Source of the DNA: Candidatus Amesbacteria bacterium RIFCSPLOWO2_01_FULL_49_25
GTDB taxonomy: Bacteria; Patescibacteriota; Microgenomatia; CAZETR01; Amesbacteraceae
Length of the DNA: 64,000 nt
Reading direction: 5' to 3'
NCBI GenBank assembly: GCA_001773725.1
Contig: MEXP01000009.1
Coordinates: 5,073 to 69,072 of the forward strand
The position numbers and the translations under genes were made by a program. Positions 1 through 17,160 of this stretch are shown in pieces (positions within the stretch are counted from its first letter, which is position 1; the number at the start of each line of letters is the position of its first letter). Below the pieces are notes generated by a model. That model was not told where the DNA came from, searched no databases, and saw only the letters and a program-made list of their open reading frames with translations.

Positions 1-111
1 TGTGAGGGGTAAGAATCTCAGTCAGATTTTTGTTTAATTTGAAAAAATGTTTTACAAATGTGTTTTTATCAAGGTATTGAAGCGAGGATATAATTTTCTT
101 TTTAATCTGCT

Positions 112-1335
112 TCATTTAATCAGTTTACTGCCGATCAGAACCAGGGCCATATAATTGGGGAAAGATTTTACCCCGGGCTTTGCGGATCCGATGATATCAA
201 AAGAATAAGCATTTTGTACATAGTCGGAAAGTTGACCGTCTGTAAATAAGCCGACGTTGACCAGACAGGTAAGAGCCGGCAGGTTTATTTCGGATGTTTC
301 AAAAACCAGAGTATTGTCAGAAACTTGACCCGAAGACAGACTCTCGGACTCGACTCTAAAAAGAGCGTTTCCCAGAGTGTCAGAAAAAGCAATTTTGGCC
401 TGCAATGTGGAAAAAGGCTTGATCACTTGAAATCTCAGAGTAATGCGCAGCCGGTCAAATGATTTTATGAGATTGTTATTTTTTATGTCAGCAATGTTTA
501 AATAAACCAGGCGGATGGCGCCATTGCCGTCGCGATCCTTTCTTTGGGAGAGGGAGATTGAAGAAGAAGCTGAACTGGCTTTGAGATATGATTCTATTAC
601 CCGGGAAGGAGTATCGTCCATTTTGATTTCACCTTTTTCCATAAGAATGCATCTGTGACAAAGGTTTTTTATGGCGGTCATGTTGTGGGATACAAACAAT
701 ACGGTGCGACCTTTTTTGGACATTTCTCCCATTTTTCCCAGACTGCGTTTTTGAAACTCAGCATCCCCGACTGCTAAAACCTCGTCTACCAGTAATATTT
801 CCGGTTCCAAATGAGCGGCAACAGCAAAGGCCAAGCGGATGTACATGCCGCTGGAATAATGTTTCACGGGTGTATCCAGGAATTTTTCGATTCCGGAGAA
901 TTCGACTATTTGGGCAAATTTCCGCTTGACTTCCTTGTGGGATAAACCAAGAATATTTCCGCCTAAATAGATATTCTCTCTCCCGGTAAGTTCCATGTGG
1001 AATCCGGTGCCTACTTCCAACAAACTGCCGATACGGCCGCGAATGATAGCTGTGCCGGAGGTGGGAGGAGTAATGCGGCTTAAAACTTTGAGCAGTGTGC
1101 TTTTACCTGCTCCGTTGGCGCCGATAATACCTACAACTTCACTCGGAAATATTTTAAGCGATACGTCTTTTAAAGCCCAAAATTCGTCGCTGATTAACTT
1201 CCGGAATTTGACAAACGGATGCAAAATTTGGGATAGACTGTCTCGGAGAGTGTAATAATGCTGAACAGCTCCGAGGCGGTATTTTTTGGAAAGTTTTCGA
1301 ATTTCAATAATGGGTTGGGGCATATGGTTAGACAA
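112..1335 (-). CDS. Polysaccharide/teichoic-acid-type ABC exporter ATP-binding subunit (Wzt/TagH family) with ~150-aa C-terminal extra domain
   Basis: Translation shows Walker A GANGAGKST, ABC signature YSSGM, Walker B ILLVDEVLAVGD and H-loop VSHN; long C-terminal extension after the NBD as in Wzt; immediately downstream of an ABC-2 permease. Confidence 0.85.
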   Translation of the reverse strand: MSNHMPQPIIEIRKLSKKYRLGAVQHYYTLRDSLSQILHPFVKFRKLISDEFWALKDVSLKIFPSEVVGIIGANGAGKSTLLKVLSRITPPTSGTAIIRGRIGSLLEVGTGFHMELTGRENIYLGGNILGLSHKEVKRKFAQIVEFSGIEKFLDTPVKHYSSGMYIRLAFAVAAHLEPEILLVDEVLAVGDAEFQKRSLGKMGEMSKKGRTVLFVSHNMTAIKNLCHRCILMEKGEIKMDDTPSRVIESYLKASSASSSISLSQRKDRDGNGAIRLVYLNIADIKNNNLIKSFDRLRITLRFQVIKPFSTLQAKIAFSDTLGNALFRVESESLSSGQVSDNTLVFETSEINLPALTCLVNVGLFTDGQLSDYVQNAYSFDIIGSAKPGVKSFPNYMALVLIGSKLIK

Positions 1336-2152
1336 TGTCAGCGAAAAACCGTTCGGTTTTTTTGAAATACCAGAGGCCGAATATAAGGCACGCGACTATA
1401 GATATGAGGGAGATTGATATTAAATTGGTGTCGATAAGCGGGTTGTCGCTAAATACCTGGCGGACTGATTCTATTACCATGGTCATCGGGTTTATAGCCA
1501 TGATGGCTCGTTTTTGGAGACCAACTATACTTAAGGGATAAATTACCGGAGTGAGAAACATGATAACTTGGATAAAAAACGGCAGGATGTATCTGACATC
1601 CCGATATCTAATGTTGAAAGCCGACAGAAAAAGTCCAATACCGCAAGCAGAGAGGGCGGTGACTATAACCGCTATGGGGATGATGACCAAGGTCCAAATT
1701 GACGGATAGTAACCCAAGATAACTGCGTAAATCATGAGAATAGAAAAATTGATAAGAAAGTCTATAAAGCTGACCACGATGGCCGATAGCGGCAGAATGA
1801 CTTTGGGAAAATAGACTTTTTTGATGATGCTTTCGTTGCCTACCAGGCTATCACTGGCGTGAGACAAGGAAGTCGAGAAAAAACCCCAAAAAACCAGGCC
1901 GCAAAGCACAAAAAGTGAGTAGGGAAGATTACCAGAAGGTATTTTGGCCAAGTTTCCAAAAAAAACCGTGAATACGACCATACTGGAGACGGGTTGAAGA
2001 ATAGCCCAGGCTACGCCCAGAACAGTTTGCTTGTAACGGACTTTGATGTCCCGCCAGGCAAATGTTAGAAACAGTTCCCGGTAGCGCCAGATTTCGGACA
2101 GGTTCAGAGCCAAACTAGACTCCGGTTTGATAATGACTGTGTAATTTTTCAT
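1328..2152 (-). CDS. ABC-2 type polysaccharide exporter permease (Wzm/TagG family)
   Basis: 6-TM ABC-2 pattern with typical N-terminus 'LSEIWRYRELFLTFAWRDIKVRYKQTVLGVAWAILQP'; ORF-track N-terminal 80 aa is Arg/Cys-rich low-complexity, so start re-set to internal ATG at 2150-2152 which forms ATGA overlap with stop of upstream acetyltransferase. Confidence 0.8.
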   Translation of the reverse strand: MKNYTVIIKPESSLALNLSEIWRYRELFLTFAWRDIKVRYKQTVLGVAWAILQPVSSMVVFTVFFGNLAKIPSGNLPYSLFVLCGLVFWGFFSTSLSHASDSLVGNESIIKKVYFPKVILPLSAIVVSFIDFLINFSILMIYAVILGYYPSIWTLVIIPIAVIVTALSACGIGLFLSAFNIRYRDVRYILPFFIQVIMFLTPVIYPLSIVGLQKRAIMAINPMTMVIESVRQVFSDNPLIDTNLISISLISIVACLIFGLWYFKKTERFFADIV

Positions 2153-2778
2153 TTGGTTATCACGCGGGCCGGGTTTCCGGCTACAACTGCAGATGCAGGA
2201 ACATCGGAGGCGACTACACTTCTGGCGCCAACTACGGCGTTGTCCCCTATCGTCACTCCTTTGAGAATGATTGAGTGCATGCCGATAAAGACATTGCGGC
2301 CAATACTCACTGGTGAAACCGGCACATTTTGGGTCGAGTAGCGCCGATTGTGAGGATTTAATGGGTGAAAATCTGTGTCTATTATGACGCAATCGGCTCC
2401 AATCAACGTATTGCTACCTATTTCGATTCTTTGGGAGGCGACGATGGATCCCCCGCTGACGCCCACATTGTCACCGATAATTAACTGGGCTTCGGGGCGC
2501 CAGGTGCAAAAAATGGTAGGCCGGGAAACCCCTAACGGGTTGGACCAATGTAAGTTCCGGTTTTCAAAATTGTTTCCGATTTCTATAGAACTACTGCGAG
2601 CACGGAGAAACACCGGGGAACCGTAGAATTTAGGATTGGATCCAATTCGGACACGAATCAATGCCATAGTAAACCGGGTCCATATTGTCGATACAACGGA
2701 CGTGAGTTCTAAAACTGCTTTCCAGGGATAGTTATAGAGTTGGTCCTTTGGGTTCATAAAAATATAAATACCTGCCAA
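2149..2778 (-). CDS. Hexapeptide-repeat (left-handed beta-helix) acetyltransferase, sugar O-acetyltransferase-like
   Basis: Tandem hexapeptide repeats IGDNVGVSGGSIV / IGSNTLIGADCVI / IGRNVFIGMHSII / IGDNAVVGARSVV then AGNPARVI; true start may be internal MNPKDQ (2757). Confidence 0.75.
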   Translation of the reverse strand: MAGIYIFMNPKDQLYNYPWKAVLELTSVVSTIWTRFTMALIRVRIGSNPKFYGSPVFLRARSSSIEIGNNFENRNLHWSNPLGVSRPTIFCTWRPEAQLIIGDNVGVSGGSIVASQRIEIGSNTLIGADCVIIDTDFHPLNPHNRRYSTQNVPVSPVSIGRNVFIGMHSIILKGVTIGDNAVVGARSVVASDVPASAVVAGNPARVITK

Positions 2779-4477
2779 GGGGTTTGGCTTGGCATACGAG
2801 ACGGGTCTCTAAATCGGAGCCCGAGTCACAAGTCCGGTGGCTGGCGAACCACACTGGCTGATCGGCGGTGGCCAATTGACCCGGTTTGGGAAAGATGTAG
2901 CGACAATTGACGACCAGGACGCTCATTGGTTGTTCATCTCGGGTGTATAAAATCCCTTCATCGAGAATGTAAAGATCTTTTTCCCCGGATGTACCGCACC
3001 AGGCAATTATATCGCCATTTTGCTTGTGGCGGTCTTTTAACCAGTGGTAAATGTTGGTTTTGCCGATGGCATAGTAGACTTCCTGCGGAGAAAGATAGTT
3101 CCAAGGGGAGTAAGTGGTTTTGAGAGTGGTGAAGACCAAGAAGACGGCGAGGGCAATAATCGGTAATAAATACAACTTATACCGGACGGCCGGAAGGACC
3201 AGAATAATTATTAAGAGAGTCTGCAAGTGCAGGAAATAACGATCAAAAAAACCGGAGAAGTTTCTGGTAAGAAATAGCTCGATAAAGGCGCCGATTAAAA
3301 GGAATATGACGGTTTTATGAAGTTTTAATAAGAGGAGAGCGACAATGAAGAGAGCAACTACAACCGGATGGCCGTAGGTGAGGCTGGAAATAATCTTGAA
3401 GGAATTGGCGAATTTTATGGGAATTGTCCAGCTGCCAGTATAAACTCCTGAAATGTCATAACACTGGGCGAATTTGCAACCGAACAGGAAGGGGTAAATC
3501 GGATTACCGGTGTAGAGGAGATTTTTTACATACCAATAACCACCAAAGATTAATAAAAGCATCAAAAATTTTGCCAGATTGCGGATATGAAGGTATTTTT
3601 TTCCCTGATACAGGTACCAAGCGCTAAAAATGGTGGTGTAGGCAGTTAACCCCAAAAGGGCGGTATATTTGCCGCCGATACTTAAGCCCCAAAAAATTGA
3701 TCCAGCTAAAAACGAGGCGGGGTTGGCAAATATCATGACGTCGAGAAGGGTAATCACAGCCAGGGTAATAAGAATGGCCATGGAATAGTCGATATAACCT
3801 GATGTGGCGATGATAAGAAGATTTTGGTTTATAAACAGGTACATAAGAGCAAAGAGGGCAGATACGGTAAAACCGAAACGCAATTTGAGCCAGGCGTAAA
3901 TTGCCGTCACTCCGCTATAAAAAAGCAGGAAATGCAGAAGACGCGAGGGTGCATAGGTTTTGGTAAGGGCAAAGGGGAGAACCATCATGGTGTCGATTAA
4001 TTTGGGCAGGTTTTGGTAATAACCGGTGCCAAAATTCCAAACCAACTCGTGTTTGACATCATACGGAGACCAGAAATGATAGGCCATCTCATCGGTCAGA
4101 TATGGGGGAAGCGAGCTTTTGACAAACAAGGCTGGTGACAAAATGAAGAAAATAATTAGCGGGAGGCGATGGGATTTGGCAAATATCCACAATTCCTTCC
4201 ATCGCCGAAAATGAAGGTACGGGGGCAGAGCGATGTAGAGTAGAGGGAGCGTTGAAAACAAAATATAGTCTGCTCTAAACGGAATGAAGAAATGCAAGCC
4301 GAACCAAACGGCCACAAACAATCCCATGCCGTAAAGCCAAACTGCAGGGCGGAGAAAAGCTGGTGATTTGATATAGCGAGAGTCAAACCAAGTTCCTATT
4401 GCATCAAAGAAAAACAAGGTGGCGACCACAAAAAGGACTAAGGCTATGTTTAGGGGATGAAAATATTGGGAGAGCAT
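2732..4477 (-). CDS. Polytopic membrane protein, putative GT-C-fold glycosyltransferase (family C: 'SSLPPYLTDEMAYHFWSPY' loop, Cys-containing C-terminal soluble domain)
   Basis: ~11-13 predicted TM segments, conserved DE-containing first loop, GNPIYPFLFGC motif; paralog of 4506-6296 and 6951-8888. Confidence 0.55.
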   Translation of the reverse strand: MLSQYFHPLNIALVLFVVATLFFFDAIGTWFDSRYIKSPAFLRPAVWLYGMGLFVAVWFGLHFFIPFRADYILFSTLPLLYIALPPYLHFRRWKELWIFAKSHRLPLIIFFILSPALFVKSSLPPYLTDEMAYHFWSPYDVKHELVWNFGTGYYQNLPKLIDTMMVLPFALTKTYAPSRLLHFLLFYSGVTAIYAWLKLRFGFTVSALFALMYLFINQNLLIIATSGYIDYSMAILITLAVITLLDVMIFANPASFLAGSIFWGLSIGGKYTALLGLTAYTTIFSAWYLYQGKKYLHIRNLAKFLMLLLIFGGYWYVKNLLYTGNPIYPFLFGCKFAQCYDISGVYTGSWTIPIKFANSFKIISSLTYGHPVVVALFIVALLLLKLHKTVIFLLIGAFIELFLTRNFSGFFDRYFLHLQTLLIIILVLPAVRYKLYLLPIIALAVFLVFTTLKTTYSPWNYLSPQEVYYAIGKTNIYHWLKDRHKQNGDIIAWCGTSGEKDLYILDEGILYTRDEQPMSVLVVNCRYIFPKPGQLATADQPVWFASHRTCDSGSDLETRLVCQAKPLGRYLYFYEPKGPTL

Positions 4478-4505
4478 GACTTGCTACCTGGATAACAAAC
4501 CTATG

Positions 4506-6296
4506 TTAATTTTGAGCTTTGTAGACATACAGGCCAGGAACTACCGGTTGGGATTTGCAAACCAAATCGTTATTTTGGCGACGTAGGGACAAAATCTGTT
4601 CGTCTTCGAGTGAATGCTTTGAAGTGACTTCAGGAAGGCAGGGTGAAAGAGAGACCAAATAAGACTGACCGGTTTCGGCCAGGCCAGTAAACGAACAGTT
4701 GACAAGGAATATATCAAACCGCCCTTGGGAGTCAAACCAAATTAAGTCCGGATCCATATTTACCAAATATTGAGTTTGGGATTGGTTATTGCACCACTCA
4801 ACTATTTGATGCGTGAGAGGCAGGACTGCGGCAATCCAGCTGGCTACTGTTGACTGCCCCTGTGAAAATTGAATTTCTCTTTGGGAGTCGGGGTTAGTAA
4901 AATAAGCAAGAGTGTTTTTTGAGAAACGAAACAGCTGGAGACTAAGAATAAGCAGCAATGGAATGGTGAAGATTTTCCTGACAGGAAATAAAGACCCCAT
5001 AAGCAGTCCGAAAATAGTCGTTCCCAAAAATAACCAGTGGTAGTAATAACGGGGAATGAAAATGAAAATCCGACTGGAAACCAAGAAGTCTGCTAGCAGG
5101 ATTAGAGCCAGAACAAGAGCGAATCGAGTTTGGGAATGATGTCGGCCGCGCCAAAGTAAAATGATGCCCATAGTTGAAACAGAAATGAGTACAGCCAGAC
5201 GACGAAGGGAAAGCTGATGCCTCAGTGAAATCCAAAGAGAAGAAAAGGTCTCGCCGGTGCCCGCCCAGGCGGCTTTAAAACCTGTGAGAAAGTTTTGACA
5301 TTCCTGATTACTGCAGCCAAATAGAAAGAAAGGGTAAATCGGAGTTTGGTAGACAACTAAATTTTTTATATACCAATAACCTCCCATCAAGACAAGTAGA
5401 GTAAGGCCAAAAAAAAGGGACTTAAATAGCGTCTTGGATTTGGTTATCATAAGAGCAGTTAAGATGATCCCGAAAAAAATTGCGGTAGGGAGAAGGGCAT
5501 TGTATTTGGAACCTAGTGCCAATCCCCACAGAGCAAGGGAGATTGGAAGTAATGTGTGATCCTTTAAAATTGAGTAGATTCCAACCACGCTAGCCAGAGT
5601 AATAAAGGAGGCCGCCGCTACGTCCACATATCCCAGGGTAGCCTCGACCGGGATGGATAGTACATTGAGCAGGGAAATGGCAGTCAAGGCGATGGCTTTT
5701 GATGACCTAAGTGACAAAAGAGAATAAAGGCAAAGCTGGAAAGAGATAAAGATCAGGCTGTGGATAAGACGGGCGGGCATGTACGTTTTAAAAACCGCAA
5801 ACAACCCTATCCACGCTGTTTCTAATGTTCTGGGAAGATTGCCATAAAGCCCGCCAAAGACCCAATGTTGTTCATGATTTAAAACGTAAGGTGAAATATA
5901 ATGATAGGTCATTTCATCCCAGGCGTAAGGAGGAAGGGATGATTTGACAAAAATCAGAGGAGCCAATGGCAATATGATTAATAGAAATAGTTTGTGATTG
6001 TGAAAAAAGTTCAGGAAAGATGATATGCCTGATGATCTCAGGTAGATAGGAAGGAAGAGAAGTGCGATTAAAAAATTCCCAATTGGAATTAAAACTGATG
6101 TGAAGGGGTAAAAAAAATGGATGGAAAAGATGAGAAGGGAATAAATACCCAGCCCTAATAACCAGGTGACGGGTCTTATAAATGGGTGATTCTTGACCGA
6201 TGAAGAAAATAGCCCAAAGCCAATAATGTCCCAACTGACAAGGTATAAAGCAAGCAGAAGGTATTGATTGGGAGTAAGGATGGCAAAATAGTTCAT
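4506..6296 (-). CDS. Polytopic membrane protein, family C paralog (putative GT-C glycosyltransferase)
   Basis: 'SSLPPYAWDEMTYHYISPY', 'TPIYPFFLFGC', C-terminal Cys-containing domain; start moved to MNYFAIL (6296) giving ATGA overlap with the methyltransferase stop. Confidence 0.55.
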   Translation of the reverse strand: MNYFAILTPNQYLLLALYLVSWDIIGFGLFSSSVKNHPFIRPVTWLLGLGIYSLLIFSIHFFYPFTSVLIPIGNFLIALLFLPIYLRSSGISSFLNFFHNHKLFLLIILPLAPLIFVKSSLPPYAWDEMTYHYISPYVLNHEQHWVFGGLYGNLPRTLETAWIGLFAVFKTYMPARLIHSLIFISFQLCLYSLLSLRSSKAIALTAISLLNVLSIPVEATLGYVDVAAASFITLASVVGIYSILKDHTLLPISLALWGLALGSKYNALLPTAIFFGIILTALMITKSKTLFKSLFFGLTLLVLMGGYWYIKNLVVYQTPIYPFFLFGCSNQECQNFLTGFKAAWAGTGETFSSLWISLRHQLSLRRLAVLISVSTMGIILLWRGRHHSQTRFALVLALILLADFLVSSRIFIFIPRYYYHWLFLGTTIFGLLMGSLFPVRKIFTIPLLLILSLQLFRFSKNTLAYFTNPDSQREIQFSQGQSTVASWIAAVLPLTHQIVEWCNNQSQTQYLVNMDPDLIWFDSQGRFDIFLVNCSFTGLAETGQSYLVSLSPCLPEVTSKHSLEDEQILSLRRQNNDLVCKSQPVVPGLYVYKAQN

Positions 6297-7048
6297 TTCC
6301 TGCCGACAACGATAACAGATTGGCCGAAGGGTAAGGTGAACAACTCCTCGAGTCTGGACCACCAGGGAACAATTAATTGGTCGTATAGCGAGATTTGGGC
6401 TTTAACGAGACTATCGGACGGGGTTCTACCGAGAAATTTATTTAACCACCAGCCAAAAAACCCGGGGAGATTAAAATAAGAGGAGGAGACTATTTGTAAG
6501 CCGGCGGTAATAAGTTTTTGCTCCAGACCGGATTTGGAATAGCGACGGAAATGTCCGATTGACCTGTCCCAATTGCCCATTAGAAAATTGAAGGCGGGAA
6601 CAAAGACTATCAGTTTGCCGCCGGGTTTGAGAATTTTGGCAAGCTGGACAATTGCTTGGGAATCTTTTTGGATGTGTTCCAGAGTATTAATGGTCACGAT
6701 AGTGTTTACTCGGGGCAATTTGTGCAGGGCGGTGGGTGAAGATATATCCGCATTTACGACGAGGATATTTTTATGAGTGGCATATTTGCGGCGGAGGTAA
6801 GAAATGTATCGCCTATCATTATCACAGAGAACCAAATGACGGGATCCCGATTCAAGAAGAACGTCGGCAATCGTGCCCAGTCCGGATCCAGCTTCCATAA
6901 CCACTCCCGAAACGTGCGACTTAATGTGCCGCCAAATCCAATGGTTGTAGTTATCTGCTTTTTGGGTTGCTACCAAACCCGCTGTCAGGGGAGAAGTAGT
7001 TAAATTCATAAAGATAAGGGGGAGGCAGGGGGCGTGATTTACAGACAA
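6293..7048 (-). CDS. Class I SAM-dependent methyltransferase
   Basis: Motif I VMEAGSGLGTIADVLL, acidic motif II LVLCDND, motif post-II/III region LKPGGKLIVFV; start could be internal (MNLTT, 7009). Confidence 0.75.
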   Translation of the reverse strand: MSVNHAPCLPLIFMNLTTSPLTAGLVATQKADNYNHWIWRHIKSHVSGVVMEAGSGLGTIADVLLESGSRHLVLCDNDRRYISYLRRKYATHKNILVVNADISSPTALHKLPRVNTIVTINTLEHIQKDSQAIVQLAKILKPGGKLIVFVPAFNFLMGNWDRSIGHFRRYSKSGLEQKLITAGLQIVSSSYFNLPGFFGWWLNKFLGRTPSDSLVKAQISLYDQLIVPWWSRLEELFTLPFGQSVIVVGRK

Positions 7049-8888
7049 TAATATTGTTGATTCGTCTTAAGTGCAACTCGAGTTCCTCTTCGCGAGGATC
7101 CTTGAAGAGAACTTCTGACTCCGGGAGACAAGGATTGAGGCTAATTAACCTGAAATTGGCCCGAGACTTTACTAATGTAGGAATAACATCGGGTAAGGGG
7201 ATGTTGTCTGAAAAGTAATCGGAGCGCGGGTGGATTTGGCAATTGGTCATAAAGATGGCAGCTTTACCATCGTCTTGATACCAAATGACGTCGGGATCAA
7301 TTTTTACAAGTGGAAGGGATGAGCTGGCAGAATTTTTTTCGCACCACTGAATAATCGGCCACATCCGGTCAAATTTGCTTTGGATCCAGTCGTAGACACT
7401 GGCTTTTCCGAGGGCATAGTTTATTTCTTCCCGAGGGAGGACGTCTTGTCGGTAAGTCAATAACAAATGGTAGCGCATGCTGGAAACGAGAATAATGACA
7501 AGTGAGATGAGAAAACCTCCAGAGATTATCCGCCAGCCAGTCCATTTATAGGTGTTGGCCAGCTGAATGCTAATAAAGAGGAACAAGAGAAGTTGGAGAT
7601 GTTGATGGTAACGAATCATGAAACCGGAAAATCGTTTGAGCAATAGCAACTCAATTAAAAATGAAGCTACTAAAAAATTGGAGACCAACCTCGTTCTAGG
7701 ATTGTTATTGGCAAGCATAAGAATTAGTGCTACAGCCAAAATTAAGGACCAGCGGTTGAGTCCCACAAATAACTGAGAAAAAATTTCAGGAAAATTAGCC
7801 CAGGAAACTTGGGTTGTCCAGCTGCCAAAGAATTCCGATTTCACTTGGCACTGATCCTCAAACCTATAACAAGGAAAGAAAAAGGGGTATGTGGGGTTAC
7901 CTGTGTAAATCAAGTTCTTGAGATACCAATATCCACCAAAAACAAGGGCTATAATTAGCAAAAGCGGTGTTTTTTTTAGATACTTTAACGGTTGATAACC
8001 TGACCAATGACGAAGGAAAATAAGTGTTAGAGTAAGCGCAGCGGCCGCCGAGGCCGTGATGGCTGAATATTTGGTGCCAATTGCTAAACTCCAGAAAAGA
8101 GAGGACAGGAGTAGGTTGTCGAAATTGTGAGAAATTAATTGACGAAAGATAAACAGCACGGCTATGGTGATAAACGAGTAAGTTGGGACGTCAACCATCC
8201 CAAGTGTCGAGGTGAGGACTATCTGGTGGGGAACGCTTAAAAAAAGAAAGGGGAAGAAAAAAGCGGTATGAAGATTGAAATTACGTTTGAGAACCAGGAA
8301 GCCGAAGGATAAAGCAGTCAAAAGGACAGTAAAGTTGGTCAAGCGAGCAAACGAGTAGGTTCTAAAAAGTGAAAAGGATAGTGTGTAATAGGTTTCCATT
8401 AAACGGGGGAGGTTTTCATAAATTCCCGAACCAAAACTCCATCGGGATAGAGATTGCAGTTGGGCGGGAGAAATAAAATGGTAAACCATTTCGTCACCGT
8501 AATAAGGAGGAAGAGAAGCTTTGACAAAAACGGCGGGTAAGAAGGGGGCTATCAAAATGACGGGAATCAGTAACTGCTTTAGCAAATTTAAAATCTGCTT
8601 GGGCTGATTTGAGCTGAAATAACGAGGTAGGATGAAAGGCAAAATACCTAATGAGATTACTAAGATCTGAAATCGCTGGGGCGGGATAAAAAATCCCAAC
8701 ACGAACCACCAAAAAACATAAACTCCGAGTCCAATTAACCAATTAACTACCCTACCCTCATTCGGAAGTTTCTCGGGAAAAACCCTATTCCTAACTGAGG
8801 TGCCCAGACAGTCGAGATAAATAACAATTAAGACAAAGATGAAAATTGATACGGGAGAGAGGGGAAAATAATACTCAGAAAGCAACAT
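6951..8888 (-). CDS. Polytopic membrane protein, family C paralog (putative GT-C glycosyltransferase)
   Basis: 'ASLPPYYGDEMVYHFISPA', 'GNPTYPFFFPC', C-terminal domain with WC..NC..PC..VCKS cysteine pattern shared with the two paralogs. Confidence 0.55.
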   Translation of the reverse strand: MLLSEYYFPLSPVSIFIFVLIVIYLDCLGTSVRNRVFPEKLPNEGRVVNWLIGLGVYVFWWFVLGFFIPPQRFQILVISLGILPFILPRYFSSNQPKQILNLLKQLLIPVILIAPFLPAVFVKASLPPYYGDEMVYHFISPAQLQSLSRWSFGSGIYENLPRLMETYYTLSFSLFRTYSFARLTNFTVLLTALSFGFLVLKRNFNLHTAFFFPFLFLSVPHQIVLTSTLGMVDVPTYSFITIAVLFIFRQLISHNFDNLLLSSLFWSLAIGTKYSAITASAAAALTLTLIFLRHWSGYQPLKYLKKTPLLLIIALVFGGYWYLKNLIYTGNPTYPFFFPCYRFEDQCQVKSEFFGSWTTQVSWANFPEIFSQLFVGLNRWSLILAVALILMLANNNPRTRLVSNFLVASFLIELLLLKRFSGFMIRYHQHLQLLLFLFISIQLANTYKWTGWRIISGGFLISLVIILVSSMRYHLLLTYRQDVLPREEINYALGKASVYDWIQSKFDRMWPIIQWCEKNSASSSLPLVKIDPDVIWYQDDGKAAIFMTNCQIHPRSDYFSDNIPLPDVIPTLVKSRANFRLISLNPCLPESEVLFKDPREEELELHLRRINNIIVCKSRPLPPPYLYEFNYFSPDSGFGSNPKSR

Positions 8889-9558
8889 CGCTTATTAAGA
8901 GATGGGTAGGTAACAATCCAAAGATCTTGTAAATTTTAACGAATACGGGCCGGGTAAGTTTCATTTTGTGAATGTCTGTAACAGAGAGCGGGTTAAAATG
9001 GGCTTCTATTCCCCAAAACTGACGGTCTGTTGAGCGACAAATTAGCCGGAACCATGACAAGGGTAGCCAGTGGATAAAGAAAAATGATGTGTGAGGCTCG
9101 TAAATGCAGTAGCGATATGGGGTGGTAACAAAGATGTGTTTACCGACGCGAAGAAGTTCGTTGAGTAATTTTTCCTGCAAGGAATAGCCTCCCACGTGTT
9201 CGAGCGTGGCCCAGGACGTCGCGATCTCAAATTTAAATTTGGGAAACGGGAGGCGTGAGTGGGGAATAATTTTAACGATTTTTATTTCAGGGTATCTTTT
9301 TTTGAGACTCGAGCAATCTTCCACAGAAGCGGCCGTCAACCGGTGAGGATACGGGTAATGCCGCTCAAAAAAGTTCGTGTCGGGCAATTTTTCTAATGGT
9401 GAGAGGCCGACATCCAAAATTAAGTCTCGATTGGAAGGGTGGAATAGGCGAAGCATTACTCCTAACTGGTGAATTCTGACTTTGAGCGATAAGCGGCTGA
9501 GGAGTGATTTCTCAGGAGTAATGCGATTGTTGATGTTGATTGACCAATTAATAGACAT
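8875..9558 (-). CDS. Probable SAM-dependent methyltransferase (Methyltransf_11/23-like)
   Basis: 'LILDVGLSP' glycine-poor motif I variant and 'ATSWATLEHVGG...LLNELLRVGKHIFVTTP' resembling class I MTase core; weaker than the other MTases. Confidence 0.45.
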   Translation of the reverse strand: MSINWSININNRITPEKSLLSRLSLKVRIHQLGVMLRLFHPSNRDLILDVGLSPLEKLPDTNFFERHYPYPHRLTAASVEDCSSLKKRYPEIKIVKIIPHSRLPFPKFKFEIATSWATLEHVGGYSLQEKLLNELLRVGKHIFVTTPYRYCIYEPHTSFFFIHWLPLSWFRLICRSTDRQFWGIEAHFNPLSVTDIHKMKLTRPVFVKIYKIFGLLPTHLLISDVAF

Positions 9559-10376
9559 TAAATGGACTTGACGAGAAATATTTTGGAATAAATGTCAAAC
9601 AGTAGTACGCCGAGTGTGATACCCAGCTCACGACGCATTGTGCTTGAAAGCAAGTCATAGTACTTCTTTTTATCTTGGTGAGCTTGACGGATTTGGACAA
9701 ATGTATTGCTGGATTGGGAATAGCTGTAATTGATCAGACGGCGGGGAAGTATGGCTAAATTTCCATATCTTGTGACTTCGAAAGTAAATTTCCAATCTTC
9801 ACAGAACTTGTATCTGACATCGAAACGCAAATTCCTGAGAAATGAAGCGTTGTATATGGTTTGCGAGACCTGGCAAAGATACACAAAAGATCTGGGAACA
9901 TTACCAGAGTTGAAATAGAAAAAGAGACCTAAGGAAGCTTCTTTCAGCACATTAAAAAGTAAAAGACGGATTTTGGAAAAGAACGACATACCCGGTTCAA
10001 AGACGAGGCGCATGAGAGTCATAACCGCCGCACAGTCCGGGTGGTGGAGCAAAAAGCCGAGGGCTGATGGCAAGAAATCGGGTTGCCAATAGTCGTCTGA
10101 GTCTAAAAAGGCTACAAAGGGGGTGGAGACGAACTTCAATCCGATATTTCGAGCGTTGGCCGGACCGCGACTGTGGGGTAGACGAATTATTTTGATTCGG
10201 TTGGGATGTGTTTTTGACTTGATCGAGAGAGGAATATCTGATCCGTCATCTATAATGACGATCCGAGATAACACTGGTTGTTTCAGAATCGACTCGACTG
10301 ACCGGACAAGCAAGGCCTGCCTATTTTTGGCCGGAATTATGACGGTGACTTGTGCCTCGGGAGGTGTATTTGGCAT
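9558..10376 (-). CDS. GT2 family glycosyltransferase
   Basis: N-terminal 'VTVIIPAKNRQALLVRSVESIL...IVIIDDGSD' and DXD 'FLDSDDYW'. Confidence 0.85.
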   Translation of the reverse strand: MPNTPPEAQVTVIIPAKNRQALLVRSVESILKQPVLSRIVIIDDGSDIPLSIKSKTHPNRIKIIRLPHSRGPANARNIGLKFVSTPFVAFLDSDDYWQPDFLPSALGFLLHHPDCAAVMTLMRLVFEPGMSFFSKIRLLLFNVLKEASLGLFFYFNSGNVPRSFVYLCQVSQTIYNASFLRNLRFDVRYKFCEDWKFTFEVTRYGNLAILPRRLINYSYSQSSNTFVQIRQAHQDKKKYYDLLSSTMRRELGITLGVLLFDIYSKIFLVKSI

Positions 10377-11127
10377 AAATTATTCCAATATCCGTTTCCA
10401 ACGGGTGGGGTTTAATTTTGACAGTGAAGCCCGATGAGCGCAAAAAGTCAACCAATTCGGGGTGGCGATGAGAGCTTAAGCTGTCGTGATATTCGATGAT
10501 AGCATGTCGAATACGAGAGAGTAACCTTTGAGGAAGGGACATGAGGATGTCATATTCTGAGCCTTCACAATCTAACTTTAGAATATCGCAAACGGTGATG
10601 TCGTACTGCTTAAATATTGAAGCGAGGGTGGTTGTACGAACTTTCTCTATCGATGAACCCGGCCTGGCTGGAAAAAGACTGGATAAACCACTGGCGGGCT
10701 GACTATAAAACTGCCGTTCACCATTGTGGTTTGATACCGCTTGCTGAATGGTGAGAACATGGCCTAGTCCATTGAGCTGCACGTTCTTTTGGAGCAGGGA
10801 GTAAGTTTTTCTAGCCGGCTCGAAGGCTAAGACTTTGGACTGGGGATAGGCTTTAGAGGCGACGAAGGAAAAAGTGCCGATGTTGGCACCGACGTCTATA
10901 ATCCAATGTGGACGGGGAATTCGGGGAAGAGGGTAGTGGCCGTCAATGATTATTTCTTTGATAGTGAGAGCGTCCAGAAAGTGGGTTATTTTGAATTGGG
11001 CACCTGAACGAAGTCGAAGCAAAGATTCCGAAATTAAGCCCAAATACAAGAGAACAATTTCATGCCAGTTTGTGATTTCTCTGGCAATGGGAAATATCTG
11101 GAGATAATAGCGGATTTTTTTAAACAT
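10321..11127 (-). CDS. FkbM-family SAM-dependent methyltransferase (sugar O-methyltransferase-like)
   Basis: 'IIDVGANIGTFSFVASKAYPQSKVLAFEPARKTYSLLQKNVQLNG' and 'LKLDCEGSEYDIL' are hallmark FkbM (Methyltransf_21) motifs. Confidence 0.85.
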   Translation of the reverse strand: MFKKIRYYLQIFPIAREITNWHEIVLLYLGLISESLLRLRSGAQFKITHFLDALTIKEIIIDGHYPLPRIPRPHWIIDVGANIGTFSFVASKAYPQSKVLAFEPARKTYSLLQKNVQLNGLGHVLTIQQAVSNHNGERQFYSQPASGLSSLFPARPGSSIEKVRTTTLASIFKQYDITVCDILKLDCEGSEYDILMSLPQRLLSRIRHAIIEYHDSLSSHRHPELVDFLRSSGFTVKIKPHPLETDIGIIYAKYTSRGTSHRHNSGQK

Positions 11128-12178
11128 CTGGCAGTCTATTAACTAAATGGGTCTTGACCGTCTCTACGAAAAAGACCCAGAGGAAGAGGGTGTTGGTTAG
11201 GCTGGCCAGAAAGAGTTTAGTTCCCATGCGGCTGTCCGGCAGCCAAAAGATCAAAAAGGCGAGAGCCGCGGCAAAGATAAGAAAAAAGGGAACTATGATG
11301 AACTTGCTCAGGAAAATTGAAACTCGCGAAGTCTTCTTTTCAATTGCCGATTTCAACAGTTCTAATAGAAGAAGACAGAGTCCAAGGGTAAAGACCAAGT
11401 ACACAAGAAAGAAGAAAACAGCAAAGTTTGACGGGTATATGTAGATAGCAATCAACGGCAAGAGAGCAATAAGGGGGTAAAGAATTTGTGGCTTGAGTAA
11501 AACTATGGCTTTGAGATGCCGCCAGCCGTCGGACCAAGTGGAAAGGTGCGGAGGTTTGTCACGTTGATCTTTTTTAAACGTTATCGGTACTTCCATGTAA
11601 CTCCCATTTTTGAGAGCGGTTTTCAAAAGCAGTTCGCTCGCCCACTCCATGCCGGAATTTCTCATATTTAACGATTTGTAGAAAGACTTCTTTACCAAGC
11701 GCATGCCCGAGTTGCAGTCCGAAGTATGAATTGAATAAATAATTCTAATTAGAGAGGACAGAATGGGTGTTCCCAGATAGCGATGGAGGACGGGCATGGC
11801 TCCGGGTTCGATGTTGCCGGTTAAGCGAGAGCCGAGGACCAAATCTGGGTGTAAGTTGAGAGTTTCTTTAAATTTTTCCAGATTTGAAAAGGGATAGCTA
11901 AGGTCGGCATCTGCATAAAGAACATACTGACCCCTGCTTCTGAGAATCCCTCCGTGCAAGGCTGCGCCATAACCGCGAATTGGTATGTGGACCACGTTTT
12001 CAAATTTGGCTTTATTGAGGGATTCTAGTGTCCCATCCGTGCTACCGTTGTCGGCGACTATTATTTCGAAATCGGAAGGAAAGAATTTCCGACAGTTTTT
12101 TTTGGCATCTGATATTACTTGCAATATTGTGGACGCCTCATTGAGGCAAGGAATAACTATGCTAATGAATGGTCCCAT
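11120..12178 (-). CDS. GtrB/ArnC/DPM1-like GT2 polyprenyl-phosphate sugar synthase with C-terminal TM helices
   Basis: 'ISIVIPCLNEASTI', 'IIVADNGSTDGT', 'YADADLSYP', followed by ~2-3 hydrophobic helices at the C-terminus (architecture of GtrB/CsbB/ArnC). Confidence 0.8.
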   Translation of the reverse strand: MGPFISIVIPCLNEASTILQVISDAKKNCRKFFPSDFEIIVADNGSTDGTLESLNKAKFENVVHIPIRGYGAALHGGILRSRGQYVLYADADLSYPFSNLEKFKETLNLHPDLVLGSRLTGNIEPGAMPVLHRYLGTPILSSLIRIIYSIHTSDCNSGMRLVKKSFYKSLNMRNSGMEWASELLLKTALKNGSYMEVPITFKKDQRDKPPHLSTWSDGWRHLKAIVLLKPQILYPLIALLPLIAIYIYPSNFAVFFFLVYLVFTLGLCLLLLELLKSAIEKKTSRVSIFLSKFIIVPFFLIFAAALAFLIFWLPDSRMGTKLFLASLTNTLFLWVFFVETVKTHLVNRLPDV

Positions 12179-12194
12179 TCTAGTTGTAAATTTT

Positions 12195-14848: not shown

Positions 14849-14877
<29 letters not shown>
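13360..14877 (-). CDS. Large polytopic membrane protein of unknown function with C-terminal soluble domain (possible GT-C transferase/polymerase)
   Basis: ~11 hydrophobic segments, 'HYVDHPGTP' loop after TM1, C-terminal ~130 aa hydrophilic; no confident family. Confidence 0.4.
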
Positions 14878-17158
<2,281 letters not shown>

Positions 17159-17160
17159 GG

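What the first reader, a model, noticed from the sequence alone, without database searches (positions are those of the whole stretch)
112..2778. Wzm/Wzt ABC exporter with Wzt C-terminal domain and coupled LbH acetyltransferase, co-resident with a Wzx flippase
The Wzt/TagH-like ATPase (112-1335) has an extra ~150-aa C-terminal domain (about 112-585). In E. coli O9a-type systems that domain is a carbohydrate-binding module that recognises a methyl or methyl-phosphate chain terminator added by WbdD. Here four methyltransferases lie within 10 kb upstream, so termination by a methyl cap is a plausible inference. The hexapeptide acetyltransferase (2149-2778) is ATGA-coupled to wzm. The same locus also encodes a Wzx-like flippase (50952-52430), so two export routes coexist: an ABC route for a cytoplasmically built polymer and a Wzx route for lipid-linked units.
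Basis: partly seen in the sequence, partly recalled or inferred. Interest (0 to 1): 0.55.

Follow-up and report, generated by a model that had tools for sequence, protein, structure and literature searches.

The report
Glycan ABC exporter with cap-binding domain
This is a known kind of polysaccharide export pump (Wzm/Wzt) whose ATPase carries a domain that reads the chemical cap on a finished sugar chain; it sits in an uncultivated groundwater bacterium (Candidatus Amesbacteria), and the gene right after it is a sugar O-methyltransferase that probably makes the cap.

Summary
The genes are real and at the stated coordinates, with small corrections to starts. Wzt is 112-1323 (403 aa), Wzm is 1328-2152, and the hexapeptide acetyltransferase is 2149-2667. 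Their stop and start codons overlap or nearly touch.

The Wzt C-terminal domain scores below Pfam's Wzt_C cut-off (26.1 against 30.4 bits). A confident model of it (pLDDT 94.8) matches only solved Wzt carbohydrate-binding domains (TM 0.58-0.69). A profile of this domain alone finds the Aquifex aeolicus 3-O-methyl-sugar-binding domain at E=2e-15.

The host is Candidatus Amesbacteria from the Rifle aquifer, a candidate phyla radiation lineage that by background knowledge lacks lipopolysaccharide. The product is therefore not an O antigen in the strict sense.

No WbdD-like kinase-methyltransferase with a coiled-coil ruler was found. Just outside the window, a TylF-family O-methyltransferase gene overlaps the wzt stop codon (ATGA). 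Its first 38 codons are window 1-115.

A methyl cap is the best reading but is unproven. The Wzx flippase is confirmed.

This is a new member of a known kind, of modest interest. The window's 22 polytopic membrane proteins, most of them GT-C-like, are the more unusual feature.

The parts
1..115 (-). First 38 codons of a 367-aa TylF-family O-methyltransferase gene. Its ATG overlaps the wzt TGA (ATGA). The rest of the gene lies outside the window (L009 12038-13141).
   Evidence: Sequence read. The full gene is on identical public contigs. Pfam TylF E=1.1e-9, 38.3 bits against a cut-off of 23. PDB relatives are MycF and NovP sugar O-methyltransferases.
112..1323 (-). wzt: ABC ATPase of 403 aa. 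The ORF can be extended to a TTG at 1335. The nucleotide-binding domain is about nt 574-1323.
   Evidence: ABC_tran E=1.1e-21. Best solved relative is A. aeolicus full-length Wzt, E=8e-68. Foldseek top hits are 7k2t and 8dku over ~400 columns. Walker A, signature, Walker B and H-loop residues are invariant in a 58-sequence alignment.
115..528 (-). Carbohydrate-binding domain of Wzt (residues ~266-403). It is a beta-sandwich with a terminal strand set apart by a long loop.
   Evidence: Wzt_C E=9.7e-6, below the Pfam cut-off. AlphaFold2 model pLDDT 94.8. The top 17 Foldseek PDB hits are all Wzt binding domains, TM 0.58-0.69; the next hit is TM 0.38. A domain-only profile hits 8dky/6o14 at E=2e-15.
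1328..2152 (-). wzm: ABC-2 permease, 274 aa.
   Evidence: ABC2_membrane E=1.8e-18. Closest solved chains are A. aeolicus Wzm at 8.9e-24 and M. abscessus Wzm at 1e-22, ahead of TarG at 5.6e-15.
2149..2667 (-). Left-handed beta-helix (hexapeptide) O-acetyltransferase of 172 aa. The ORF is extendable to a TTG at 2778. Its stop overlaps the wzm start (ATGA).
   Evidence: Hexapep E=3.5e-11. Nearest NCBIfam models are maltose O-acetyltransferase and WbbJ, both below cut-off. Junction read.
2732..8888 (-). Three paralogous polytopic membrane proteins (2732-4477, 4506-6362, 6951-8888), GT-C-like, with a class I methyltransferase (6293-7009) between them. They lie directly upstream of the exporter in the same orientation.
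   Evidence: They form a paralog group by blastp, with 9-11 hydrophobic segments each. 6951-8888 has a weak PMT_2 hit, E=2.5e-5; the methyltransferase hits Methyltransf_25/23/11.
8875..9558 (-). 227-aa protein, a possible methyltransferase. Unconfirmed.
   Evidence: No Pfam or NCBIfam hit. Only a weak PDB hit, 2gs9, E=0.027.
10321..11127 (-). FkbM-family methyltransferase, also matching the V. cholerae RfbT model. It is a second candidate capping or decorating enzyme.
   Evidence: Methyltransf_21 E=1.9e-21 and V_cholerae_RfbT E=2.6e-9. TIGR01444 E=1.7e-32, above cut-off.
11120..12178 (-). GT2 with a membrane tail, resembling a polyprenyl-phosphate sugar synthase. It would supply the lipid-linked donor for GT-C enzymes.
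   Evidence: Glycos_transf_2 E=4.8e-25. Nearest NCBIfam models are AglJ, PpgS and dolichyl-phosphate hexose transferase, all below cut-off.
14849..15493 (-). Class I SAM methyltransferase, 13.5 kb upstream of wzt.
   Evidence: Methyltransf_23 E=4.2e-17.
15480..18138 (-). GDP-6-deoxyhexose supply: Fcl-like GDP-L-fucose synthase (15480-16403), a GT2 (16400-17158) and GDP-mannose 4,6-dehydratase (17161-18138).
   Evidence: GDPFucSynFcl E=5.7e-90, full length but below cut-off; gmd E=8e-56. GDP_Man_Dehyd E=1.3e-81.
50952..52430 (-). Wzx-type MOP flippase, 492 aa.
   Evidence: Polysacc_synt_3 E=1.6e-45. MOP flippase family E=7.9e-40.

Best explanation
The block acetyltransferase-wzm-wzt-methyltransferase is the export and termination module of an ABC-transporter-dependent glycan pathway in Candidatus Amesbacteria.

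**Proposed mechanism.**
1. A polymer is built in the cytoplasm on a polyprenyl carrier by the locus's soluble GT2 and GT4 enzymes. Donors include a GDP-6-deoxyhexose made by Gmd and Fcl. The polymer may be O-acetylated by the hexapeptide acetyltransferase.
2. Chain growth ends when the non-reducing end is capped. The most likely cap is an O-methyl group added by the TylF-family methyltransferase whose gene overlaps the wzt stop codon.
3. The C-terminal carbohydrate-binding domain of Wzt binds the capped end. The Wzm2Wzt2 channel then moves the lipid-linked chain across the membrane using ATP.
4. Outside the membrane, the neighbouring GT-C-type enzymes probably add further sugars from polyprenyl-phosphate sugar donors. 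The Wzx flippase serves a separate lipid-linked oligosaccharide route.
5. Because the host has no lipopolysaccharide (background knowledge), the acceptor would be a wall, lipid or protein anchor, not lipid A-core.

**What is shown.** Gene identities, gene overlaps, the fold and homology of the binding domain, and conservation of the block in a sister genome.

**What is inferred.** The lipid carrier, the nature of the cap, cap-dependent export, later GT-C elaboration and the acceptor.

**My probabilities.** About 0.9 that this is a Wzm/Wzt exporter with a genuine binding domain. About 0.5 that the cap is an O-methyl group made by the TylF-like enzyme.
For: **The binding domain.**
- The domain-only model has pLDDT 94.8.
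- Its 17 best PDB matches are all Wzt carbohydrate-binding domains: A. aeolicus 6o14/8dky, E. coli O9a 2r5o and R. terrigena 5hno/5hnp, at TM 0.58-0.69. The next match drops to TM 0.38.
- A 21-sequence profile of the domain alone hits the A. aeolicus domain crystallised with 3-O-methyl-D-mannose (8dky) at E=2.2e-15. It does not reach 2r5o or 5hno at E<=1.
- In that alignment Trp362, the indole that stacks on the methyl cap (PMC9445017), falls on a Tyr/Trp/His column next to a nearly invariant Asp. It is Tyr in this protein ('SDYVQN').

**The transporter.**
- The full-length model best matches A. aeolicus WzmWzt 7k2t/8dku.
- Wzt and Wzm score higher against Wzt/Wzm than against TarH/TagH and TarG.

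**Gene coupling.**
- ATGA overlaps are present at both the acetyltransferase/wzm and wzt/methyltransferase junctions.
- A second Amesbacteria contig (L096) keeps GT-C, acetyltransferase, wzm, wzt and TylF-methyltransferase at 81-91% identity. The binding domain is 84% identical and the ATGA overlap is retained.
- A third Amesbacteria genome (L017) has a different methyltransferase beside wzm. Its nucleotide-binding domain is 64% identical but its binding domain only 30%. This is what one expects if the domain tracks the cap chemistry.
- Distant homologues of the TylF-like enzyme sit next to polysaccharide-type ABC transporter genes in 2 of 3 contexts examined.

**Precedents.**
- In G. stearothermophilus, wzm, wzt and wsaE have overlapping stop and start codons. 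WsaE's methyltransferase domain makes a 2-O-methyl cap (PMC2943079).
- P. syringae has a wzm-wzt-O-methyltransferase-wbdA operon next to gmd and rmd (PMC7820976).
Against: - The Pfam Wzt_C score is below the curated cut-off.
- The residues lining the A. aeolicus methyl pocket, Leu300/Thr346/Ala348, align to Ala/Asn/Gly here. Specificity therefore cannot be read from the sequence.
- The alignment around the lid residue is loop-rich, and MAFFT and HMMER disagree there.
- The TylF-like protein has no coiled-coil ruler, yet characterised terminators consistently have one (PMC11231755).
- At least three other methyltransferases in the locus could be the capping enzyme, or all of them may only decorate the chain.
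- No initiating phosphoglycosyltransferase, ligase or LCP enzyme was found in the window by Pfam.
- The methyltransferase gene itself lies almost wholly outside the window.
- No biochemical data exist for this organism.
Confidence: 0.6

Rival explanations
1. This is the same exporter and binding domain, but the cap is not a methyl group. The domain would recognise another terminal residue or substituent. Candidates are an unusual sugar made by the nucleotide-sugar cassette just downstream, a ulosonic-acid-type residue as in Klebsiella O12/O4, or a phosphate- or acetyl-bearing end. The methyltransferases would then only decorate the chain.
For: - Known binding domains with the same fold read very different caps: methyl phosphate, methyl and beta-Kdo.
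- Downstream of the methyltransferase lies a conserved cassette: a cupin or SIS isomerase, a nucleotidyltransferase plus APH-like kinase fusion, a KdsC-like phosphatase and further nucleotidyltransferases.
- A homologous cassette follows wzt in a gammaproteobacterial locus.
- The pocket residues differ from those of A. aeolicus.
- The domain has very few sequence relatives: 24 clusters at E<=0.001 among 1.84 billion representatives.
Against: - The domain's only sequence-level match among solved structures is the methyl-sugar-binding A. aeolicus type.
- The gene translationally coupled to wzt is a methyltransferase, not a glycosyltransferase.
- No KdsA- or NeuB-type synthase was seen in the 10 kb downstream.
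Confidence: 0.25
2. The pair is functionally a teichoic-acid-type (TagGH/TarGH-like) exporter for a polyol-phosphate or phosphodiester-linked wall polymer of a single-membrane cell. The C-terminal domain would serve some other recognition role.
For: - The host is a candidate phyla radiation bacterium without lipopolysaccharide (plus background knowledge).
- The top NCBIfam hit by E-value is a teichoic acid export ATPase model, 1e-53, far below its cut-off.
- GDPD, IspD-like nucleotidyltransferase and Fe-ADH genes lie downstream.
Against: - Wzt and Wzm score clearly better against A. aeolicus Wzt/Wzm than against TarH/TagH/TarG: 232 against 183 bits, and 88 against 59 bits.
- The solved TarH and TagH N-domain chains matched here end with the nucleotide-binding domain.
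- The extension here is a genuine Wzt binding domain.
- No TagF/TarL-type polymerase was detected in the window.
Confidence: 0.08
3. The binding domain is retained but is not a checkpoint. Export would be coupled to synthesis as in Klebsiella O1/O2-type systems, and the domain would be vestigial or bind internal repeats.
For: - No coiled-coil terminator was found.
- The Pfam score is sub-threshold.
Against: - The domain is modelled with very high confidence.
- It is 84% conserved in the sister genome, with the pocket-lining stretches identical.
- In every characterised system with such a domain, it is required for export (PMC9445017 and PMC11231755).
Confidence: 0.07

Closest known systems
Aquifex aeolicus WzmWzt O-antigen ABC transporter (PDB 7k2t, 8dku; binding domain 6o14, 8dky)
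   Same: - It is the best sequence and fold match for the whole Wzt (34% identity over ~400 columns), for Wzm, and for the binding domain alone (profile E=2e-15, TM 0.65-0.69).
- The architecture is the same: nucleotide-binding domain, hinge helix, beta-sandwich domain.
- An aromatic residue aligns with the methyl-stacking Trp362.
- The locus likewise makes a GDP-6-deoxyhexose.
   Different: - The binding domains are only ~16-18% identical.
- The pocket residues differ: Ala/Asn/Gly/Tyr here against Leu/Thr/Ala/Trp.
- The host has no outer membrane or lipid A-core acceptor (background knowledge).
- The sugar reductase looks like Fcl (L-fucose) rather than Rmd (D-rhamnose).
Geobacillus stearothermophilus NRS 2004/3a S-layer glycan cluster (wzm-wzt-wsaE)
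   Same: - The host is a single-membrane bacterium.
- wzm, wzt and the gene encoding the capping methyltransferase have overlapping stop and start codons.
- The O-methyl cap is proposed to be read by Wzt before export (PMC2943079).
   Different: - WsaE is a trifunctional methyltransferase plus two rhamnosyltransferase modules. Here the enzyme is a stand-alone TylF-family methyltransferase with a ~180-aa N-terminal region of unknown role.
- No WsaB-like O-oligosaccharyltransferase or WsaP-like initiator was identified in the window.
- The sequences were not compared directly.
E. coli O9a/O8 (Klebsiella O3/O5) WbdA-WbdD-Wzm/Wzt polymerase-terminator system
   Same: The logic is the same: cytoplasmic polymerisation, a terminal methyl or methyl-phosphate cap, a Wzt binding domain as export checkpoint. 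The binding-domain fold also matches (2r5o, TM 0.64-0.66).
   Different: - No WbdD-like kinase-methyltransferase and no coiled-coil ruler were found.
- No sequence-level match to the O9a domain was obtained.
- The product here would not be a lipopolysaccharide O antigen.
Pseudomonas syringae CPA 'TET' operon (wzm-wzt-O-methyltransferase-wbdA beside gmd/rmd)
   Same: The gene order is transporter followed by an O-methyltransferase, in a locus with GDP-mannose 4,6-dehydratase. The wzt 3' part and the terminator vary together between lineages (PMC7820976). The L017 against L096 contrast here is similar.
   Different: - That host has two membranes and lipopolysaccharide.
- The methyltransferase family there was not compared.
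- A WbdA-type polymerase is adjacent there but was not identified here.
TarGH/TagGH wall teichoic acid exporters
   Same: They belong to the same ABC class and to a single-membrane host context.
   Different: - Similarity is lower than to Wzm/Wzt.
- The matched TarH/TagH chains show no Wzt-type binding domain.
- No polyol-phosphate polymerase is present in the window.

Membership tests
Wzm/Wzt polysaccharide ABC exporter | ABC ATPase with intact Walker A, signature (YSSGM), Walker B plus catalytic Glu, and H-loop | tested here: met
   ABC_tran E=1.1e-21. G65-T76, S157-M160, D180/E181 and H213 are invariant across 58 homologues.
Wzm/Wzt polysaccharide ABC exporter | Adjacent ABC-2 permease partner, closer to Wzm than to TarG or KpsM | tested here: met
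   ABC2_membrane E=1.8e-18. A. aeolicus Wzm 8.9e-24 and M. abscessus Wzm 1e-22, against TarG 5.6e-15 and KpsM 1.1e-9.
Wzm/Wzt polysaccharide ABC exporter | ATPase closer to Wzt than to TagH/TarH | tested here: met
   phmmer 232.5 bits to A. aeolicus Wzt, against 183.3 (TarH) and 177.0 (TagH). Foldseek ranks 1-9 are all A. aeolicus Wzt chains. NCBIfam models do not discriminate and all fall below cut-off.
Wzm/Wzt polysaccharide ABC exporter | Transports a completed polyprenyl-diphosphate-linked polymer | not testable with these tools
   This needs biochemistry or genetics. The organism is uncultivated.
Wzt C-terminal carbohydrate-binding domain (Pfam PF14524) | Score at or above Pfam's gathering threshold | tested here: not met
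   26.1 bits against a cut-off of 30.4, E=9.7e-6, residues 266-386. Public precomputed annotation also marks it 'weak'.
Wzt C-terminal carbohydrate-binding domain (Pfam PF14524) | Beta-sandwich/jelly-roll fold superposable on solved Wzt binding domains | tested here: met
   Model pLDDT 94.8. The top 17 Foldseek PDB hits are exclusively 6o14, 8dky, 8dku, 8dl0, 8dne, 7k2t, 2r5o, 5hno and 5hnp, TM 0.58-0.69, probability 1.00. The next fold is TM 0.38.
Wzt C-terminal carbohydrate-binding domain (Pfam PF14524) | Sequence-profile homology of the domain alone to a solved binding domain | tested here: met
   Profile A3 (21 domain-only sequences) hits 8dky at E=2.2e-15 and 6o14 at 3e-15. The single sequence alone finds nothing in the PDB.
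Wzt C-terminal carbohydrate-binding domain (Pfam PF14524) | Cap-contacting residues (in A. aeolicus: Trp362 lid; Leu300/Thr346/Ala348 pocket) | tested here: inconclusive
   HMMER alignments place Trp362 on a Tyr/Trp/His column, which is Tyr here. The pocket positions align to Ala/Asn/Gly. The MAFFT alignment is unstable in this loop.
Wzt C-terminal carbohydrate-binding domain (Pfam PF14524) | Dimer formed by exchange of the C-terminal strand; binds the non-reducing-end cap | not tested
   Only monomer models were made. A terminal strand separated by a ~20-residue loop is present.
WbdD-type chain terminator | Kinase and methyltransferase modules in one protein | tested here: not met
   The wzt-coupled protein has only a TylF/Methyltransf_24 domain. 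The only APH-like region (E=0.0078) is in a separate 528-aa protein fused to a LicC-like nucleotidyltransferase.
WbdD-type chain terminator | Extended coiled-coil molecular ruler | tested here: not met
   This was a crude test. The longest Pro/Gly-free stretch in the 367-aa protein is 41 residues, and the methyltransferase domain fills residues ~185-367. No dedicated coiled-coil predictor was available.
TylF-family sugar O-methyltransferase (PF05711) | Pfam score above cut-off and similarity to solved members | tested here: met
   38.3 bits against a cut-off of 23. MycF 8.7e-6 and NovP 7.4e-5. The substrate was not tested.
Wzx / MOP flippase | Polysacc_synt family membership over the full length | tested here: met
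   Polysacc_synt_3 156 bits against a cut-off of 23. PRK10459 MOP flippase E=7.9e-40, below its 273-bit cut-off.
TagGH/TarGH teichoic acid exporter | Best similarity to TagH/TarH and TagG/TarG, with a polyol-phosphate polymerase in the locus | tested here: not met
   These rank second to Wzt/Wzm. No TagF-like family appeared.

The most novel reading that the evidence does not exclude
A candidate phyla radiation bacterium with no outer membrane uses a cap-checked Wzm/Wzt exporter for a surface glycan. The binding domain is a rare sequence subtype, and the terminator is a stand-alone TylF-type methyltransferase without a coiled-coil ruler. The exported chain then serves as scaffold for extensive extracytoplasmic elaboration by up to 22 GT-C-type enzymes encoded in the same 64 kb. 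That would be a mycobacterial-arabinogalactan-like assembly line in the candidate phyla radiation, and a way of terminating chains without a ruler.
Probability: 0.2. Interest if true: 0.6.

Novelty: new member of a known kind. Interest (0 to 1): 0.3.

Why it matters
Cap-dependent export by Wzm/Wzt is well understood in Gram-negative O-antigen synthesis and has a precedent in Gram-positive S-layer glycans. Finding the complete module in Amesbacteria shows that the same quality-control logic is used in the candidate phyla radiation. The surface chemistry of that group is almost unknown, and it probably governs attachment to host cells.

The result also corrects public annotation. Wzt is named 'hypothetical protein' and Wzm 'phosphate ABC transporter permease'.

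It gives a concrete handle for experiments: a small soluble domain and a small methyltransferase. Both could be expressed to learn what sugar end these uncultivated cells display.

It does not change the current understanding of the transporter family.

Tried and rejected
- **Exact look-up of the 407-aa TTG-start Wzt** found nothing. The public calls use the ATG, giving 403 aa.
- **A PDB sequence search with the C-terminal domain alone** gave only chance-level hits. A profile and a fold search were needed.
- **The GTDB genome scan** did not return the source genome. The best hit was 52% identity, in another Amesbacteria genome. The organism was identified instead by exact-sequence cluster look-up.
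- **MAFFT --add --keeplength of the A. aeolicus fragment** dropped inserted residues and mis-numbered the lid region. I relied on the HMMER alignments instead.
- **tblastn of the TylF-like methyltransferase against 80 Wzt loci from other phyla** found only one weak hit. The wzt-TylF pairing is therefore lineage-restricted, not general.
- **The 528-aa kinase-like protein as a WbdD-type terminal kinase.** I considered this and rejected it as unlikely. It is fused to a LicC-like nucleotidyltransferase. It also travels with an isomerase and a KdsC/GmhB-like phosphatase, both in the sister genome and in a gammaproteobacterium. That matches the logic of an NDP-heptose-type nucleotide-sugar pathway. 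This is an inference.
- **A literature search for candidate phyla radiation plus Wzt** found nothing relevant.
- **No structure prediction was left for the methyltransferase.** Its N-terminal ~180 residues remain uncharacterised.

Full report
**Observation**

- **wzt** is an ORF at 112-1335 (407 aa from a TTG). An ATG at 1323 gives the 403-aa product found in every public gene call.
- **wzm** is 1328-2152.
- **The hexapeptide acetyltransferase** is an ORF at 2149-2778, most likely starting at the ATG at 2667 (172 aa).

Pfam gives ABC_tran (1.1e-21), ABC2_membrane (1.8e-18) and Hexapep (3.5e-11).

I read the junctions directly.

- The acetyltransferase stop and the wzm start share ATGA at 2149-2152.
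- The wzt ATG follows the wzm TAA by 4 nt.
- The wzt TGA overlaps the ATG of a further gene at 112-115.

The Wzx gene at 50952-52430 is a clear MOP flippase (Polysacc_synt_3 1.6e-45).

The claim of 'four methyltransferases within 10 kb' is overstated.

- Two have family support inside 10 kb: 6293-7009 and 10321-11127.
- One (8875-9558) has no family hit and only a weak PDB hit.
- The fourth (14849-15493) lies 13.5 kb away.

**Is the C-terminal extension a Wzt carbohydrate-binding domain?**

Pfam's Wzt_C model matches residues 266-386 at E=9.7e-6, but at 26.1 bits it is below the 30.4-bit gathering score. By that criterion alone, membership is not established. The domain on its own also finds nothing in the PDB by sequence.

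Three further tests settle the question.

1. The full-length protein aligns with full-length A. aeolicus Wzt well into its binding domain: E=8e-68 with query residues 42-333, and a family profile reaches profile position 388 of 416 at E=2e-104.
2. AlphaFold2 models are confident, at pLDDT 86.8 for the whole protein and 94.8 for the domain alone.
   - The full model's best PDB matches are the A. aeolicus WzmWzt structures over ~400 columns.
   - The domain-only model's 17 best matches are all Wzt binding domains: A. aeolicus 6o14/8dky, E. coli O9a 2r5o and R. terrigena 5hno/5hnp, at TM 0.58-0.69.
   - The next fold (NPC2) drops to TM 0.38.
3. A profile of 21 domain-only sequences hits the A. 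aeolicus domain (8dky, crystallised with 3-O-methyl-D-mannose) at E=2.2e-15.

The alternative of a TagGH pair with an unrelated extension is also not supported. Wzt and Wzm both score higher against A. aeolicus Wzt/Wzm than against TarH/TagH/TarG.

**Source organism**

Exact-sequence look-ups place these proteins in Candidatus Amesbacteria genomes (Microgenomates, candidate phyla radiation) from the Rifle aquifer. Identical contigs of up to 157 kb occur in many samples.

The public names are 'hypothetical protein' for Wzt and 'phosphate ABC transporter permease' for Wzm.

From established knowledge, not tested here, these bacteria lack lipopolysaccharide and an outer membrane. The polymer is therefore not an O antigen in the strict sense.

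**What lies just outside the window**

On the identical public contigs, the gene whose ATG overlaps the wzt stop encodes a 367-aa protein with a C-terminal TylF-family O-methyltransferase domain.

- Its Pfam score is 38.3 bits against a cut-off of 23.
- Its PDB relatives are the macrolide-sugar O-methyltransferases MycF and NovP.
- The window holds only its first 38 codons.

A sister Amesbacteria contig (L096) keeps the block GT-C, acetyltransferase, wzm, wzt, TylF-methyltransferase at 81-91% identity. Its binding domain is 84% identical, its pocket-lining stretches are unchanged, and the ATGA overlap is retained.

A more distant Amesbacteria genome (L017) has a different, class-I-like methyltransferase beside wzm. 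Its Wzt is 64% identical in the ATPase domain but only 30% in the binding domain. This is the pattern expected if the binding domain co-varies with the terminating chemistry, as reported for the P. syringae TET operon (PMC7820976).

The TylF-like subfamily is rare, with 14 hits in the word-indexed search. In two of three distant contexts examined it again neighbours polysaccharide-type ABC transporter genes. It is absent from 79 of 80 Wzt loci of other phyla.

**Cap chemistry**

In A. aeolicus the 3-O-methyl group sits in a pocket of Leu300, Thr346, Ala348 and Trp362, with Trp362 stacking on the methyl (PMC9445017).

HMMER alignments put Trp362 on a column that is Tyr, Trp or His across the family, next to a nearly invariant Asp. 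That position is Tyr in this protein. The other three positions are Ala, Asn and Gly.

This is compatible with a small-substituent pocket but does not define specificity. The alignment in this loop is also not robust.

The domain alone has only 24 relatives at E<=0.001 among 1.84 billion cluster representatives, the best at 37% identity. It is therefore a lineage-specific variant.

**Is there a WbdD-like enzyme?**

None was found.

- The wzt-coupled protein has no kinase module.
- It has no room for a long coiled coil: its longest Pro/Gly-free stretch is 41 residues.
- Characterised terminators consistently carry such a ruler (PMC11231755).

The only kinase-like region nearby (APH, E=0.0078) is the C-terminal half of a 528-aa protein. 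Its N-terminal half resembles LicC-type nucleotidyltransferases.

That protein travels with a cupin isomerase and a KdsC/GmhB-like phosphatase. In the sister genome a GmhA-sized SIS isomerase replaces the cupin. A 35%-identical copy with the same partners follows wzt in a gammaproteobacterial locus.

The set isomerase, kinase, phosphatase, nucleotidyltransferase mirrors NDP-heptose biosynthesis. I infer a nucleotide-sugar pathway rather than a polymer-end kinase.

**Context in the window**

Almost every gene is on the minus strand. G+C ranges only from 0.41 to 0.49 across the window. The window contains:

- about 18 GT2 genes and 2 GT4 genes;
- Gmd plus an Fcl-like reductase, implying GDP-L-fucose or a related 6-deoxyhexose;
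- an AsnB-type amidotransferase;
- GT2 enzymes with membrane tails that resemble polyprenyl-phosphate sugar synthases;
- 22 polytopic membrane proteins, thirteen of which match the GT-C family PMT_2 at E<=0.01, six of them above its cut-off.

Three of these polytopic proteins are paralogues that sit directly upstream of the acetyltransferase.

This fits post-export glycosylation by GT-C enzymes using lipid-linked donors, which is known for ABC-transporter-dependent glycans (PMC11127046).

No initiating phosphoglycosyltransferase, WaaL-type ligase or LCP enzyme was detected in the window.

**Best explanation**

This is the export and termination module of an ABC-transporter-dependent glycan pathway.

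1. The polymer is assembled in the cytoplasm on a polyprenyl carrier.
2. It is possibly O-acetylated.
3. It is capped, most likely by O-methylation through the wzt-coupled TylF-like enzyme.
4. The Wzt binding domain recognises the cap.
5. Wzm/Wzt translocates the chain.
6. The chain is probably elaborated outside the membrane by GT-C enzymes.

Wzx serves a separate lipid-linked route.

The closest mechanistic precedents are:

- A. aeolicus WzmWzt, which has a methyl-sugar cap.
- The G. stearothermophilus S-layer glycan cluster, in a single-membrane host. There wzm, wzt and wsaE also have overlapping stop and start codons, and WsaE's methyltransferase domain makes the cap (PMC2943079).

The transporter and domain identities are shown. 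The cap, its dependence for export, the carrier lipid and the acceptor are inferred.

**Rivals**

- A non-methyl cap, about 0.25.
- A teichoic-acid-like substrate, about 0.08.
- A non-checkpoint binding domain, about 0.07.

**Verdict**

This is a new member of a known kind in an under-studied phylum. Interest is modest, at 0.3.

Noticed in passing
window 2732-62071, minus strand: The window encodes 22 polytopic membrane proteins of 368-645 aa. By blastp they form one 11-member paralogue family, a 3-member family next to the exporter, a pair, and singletons that include a PIG-V-like and a GT87/ALG6-like protein. Thirteen match the GT-C family PMT_2 at E<=0.01, six above its cut-off. This is an unusually large set of putative extracytoplasmic glycosyltransferases for a small candidate phyla radiation genome.
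   Followed up: partly
L009 13166-20825 (the same contig, beyond the window's start); L096 8120-15107; L034 13249-17628: A cassette lies downstream of wzt and the methyltransferase. It holds a cupin isomerase (SIS plus Ru5P 3-epimerase in the sister genome), a 528-aa LicC-like nucleotidyltransferase fused to an APH-like kinase, a KdsC-like HAD phosphatase, GDPD, further nucleotidyltransferases, Fe-ADH and a GatZ-like protein. A 35%-identical kinase fusion with the phosphatase, GatZ-like protein and cupin also follows wzt in an uncultured gammaproteobacterium. It may be an undescribed nucleotide-sugar pathway.
   Followed up: partly
window 112-2152: Public annotation is uninformative or wrong. 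Wzm (OGC92132.1) is named 'phosphate ABC transporter permease', and Wzt (OGD04542.1/OGD08085.1) is named 'hypothetical protein'.
   Followed up: yes
L001 4728-11233 (contig carrying the closest non-Amesbacteria Wzt, P0002): On an archaeal-looking contig (Pilin_N and AF2212-like genes), wzm is separated from wzt by ~4.4 kb. That gap holds toxin-antitoxin modules (HepT/MNT and two PIN/AF2212-like pairs) interleaved with two short ABC_tran fragments of 83 and 101 aa. They look like remnants of disrupted wzt copies.
   Followed up: no
window 32652-34472: A full-length glutamine-dependent asparagine synthase (AsnB-type) lies inside the glycan locus (Asn_synthase 9.7e-74). A similar homologue (wsfA) is listed in the Paenibacillus alvei S-layer glycan cluster. 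It may amidate a sugar acid.
   Followed up: no
window 36320-37228: A UPF0020/RNA-type methyltransferase domain protein (E=5.4e-27) is embedded among glycosyltransferases and overlaps the next ORF (37053-37976) by ~175 nt. Its role in a glycan locus is unclear, and the start codons there need checking.
   Followed up: no
window 11985-13373 and 35440-36312, plus strand: These are two of only three plus-strand ORFs of 150 aa or more that do not lie inside a minus-strand ORF; both are GT2 glycosyltransferases. The 462-aa ORF at 11985 overlaps the minus-strand GT2 at 11120-12178. Public calls use a shorter 384-aa product.
   Followed up: no
window 10321-11127: The FkbM-family methyltransferase also matches the Vibrio cholerae RfbT model (E=2.6e-9). 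By background knowledge, RfbT methylates the terminal perosamine of the O1 Ogawa antigen. This gene is therefore a second candidate for a terminal-sugar methyltransferase.
   Followed up: no
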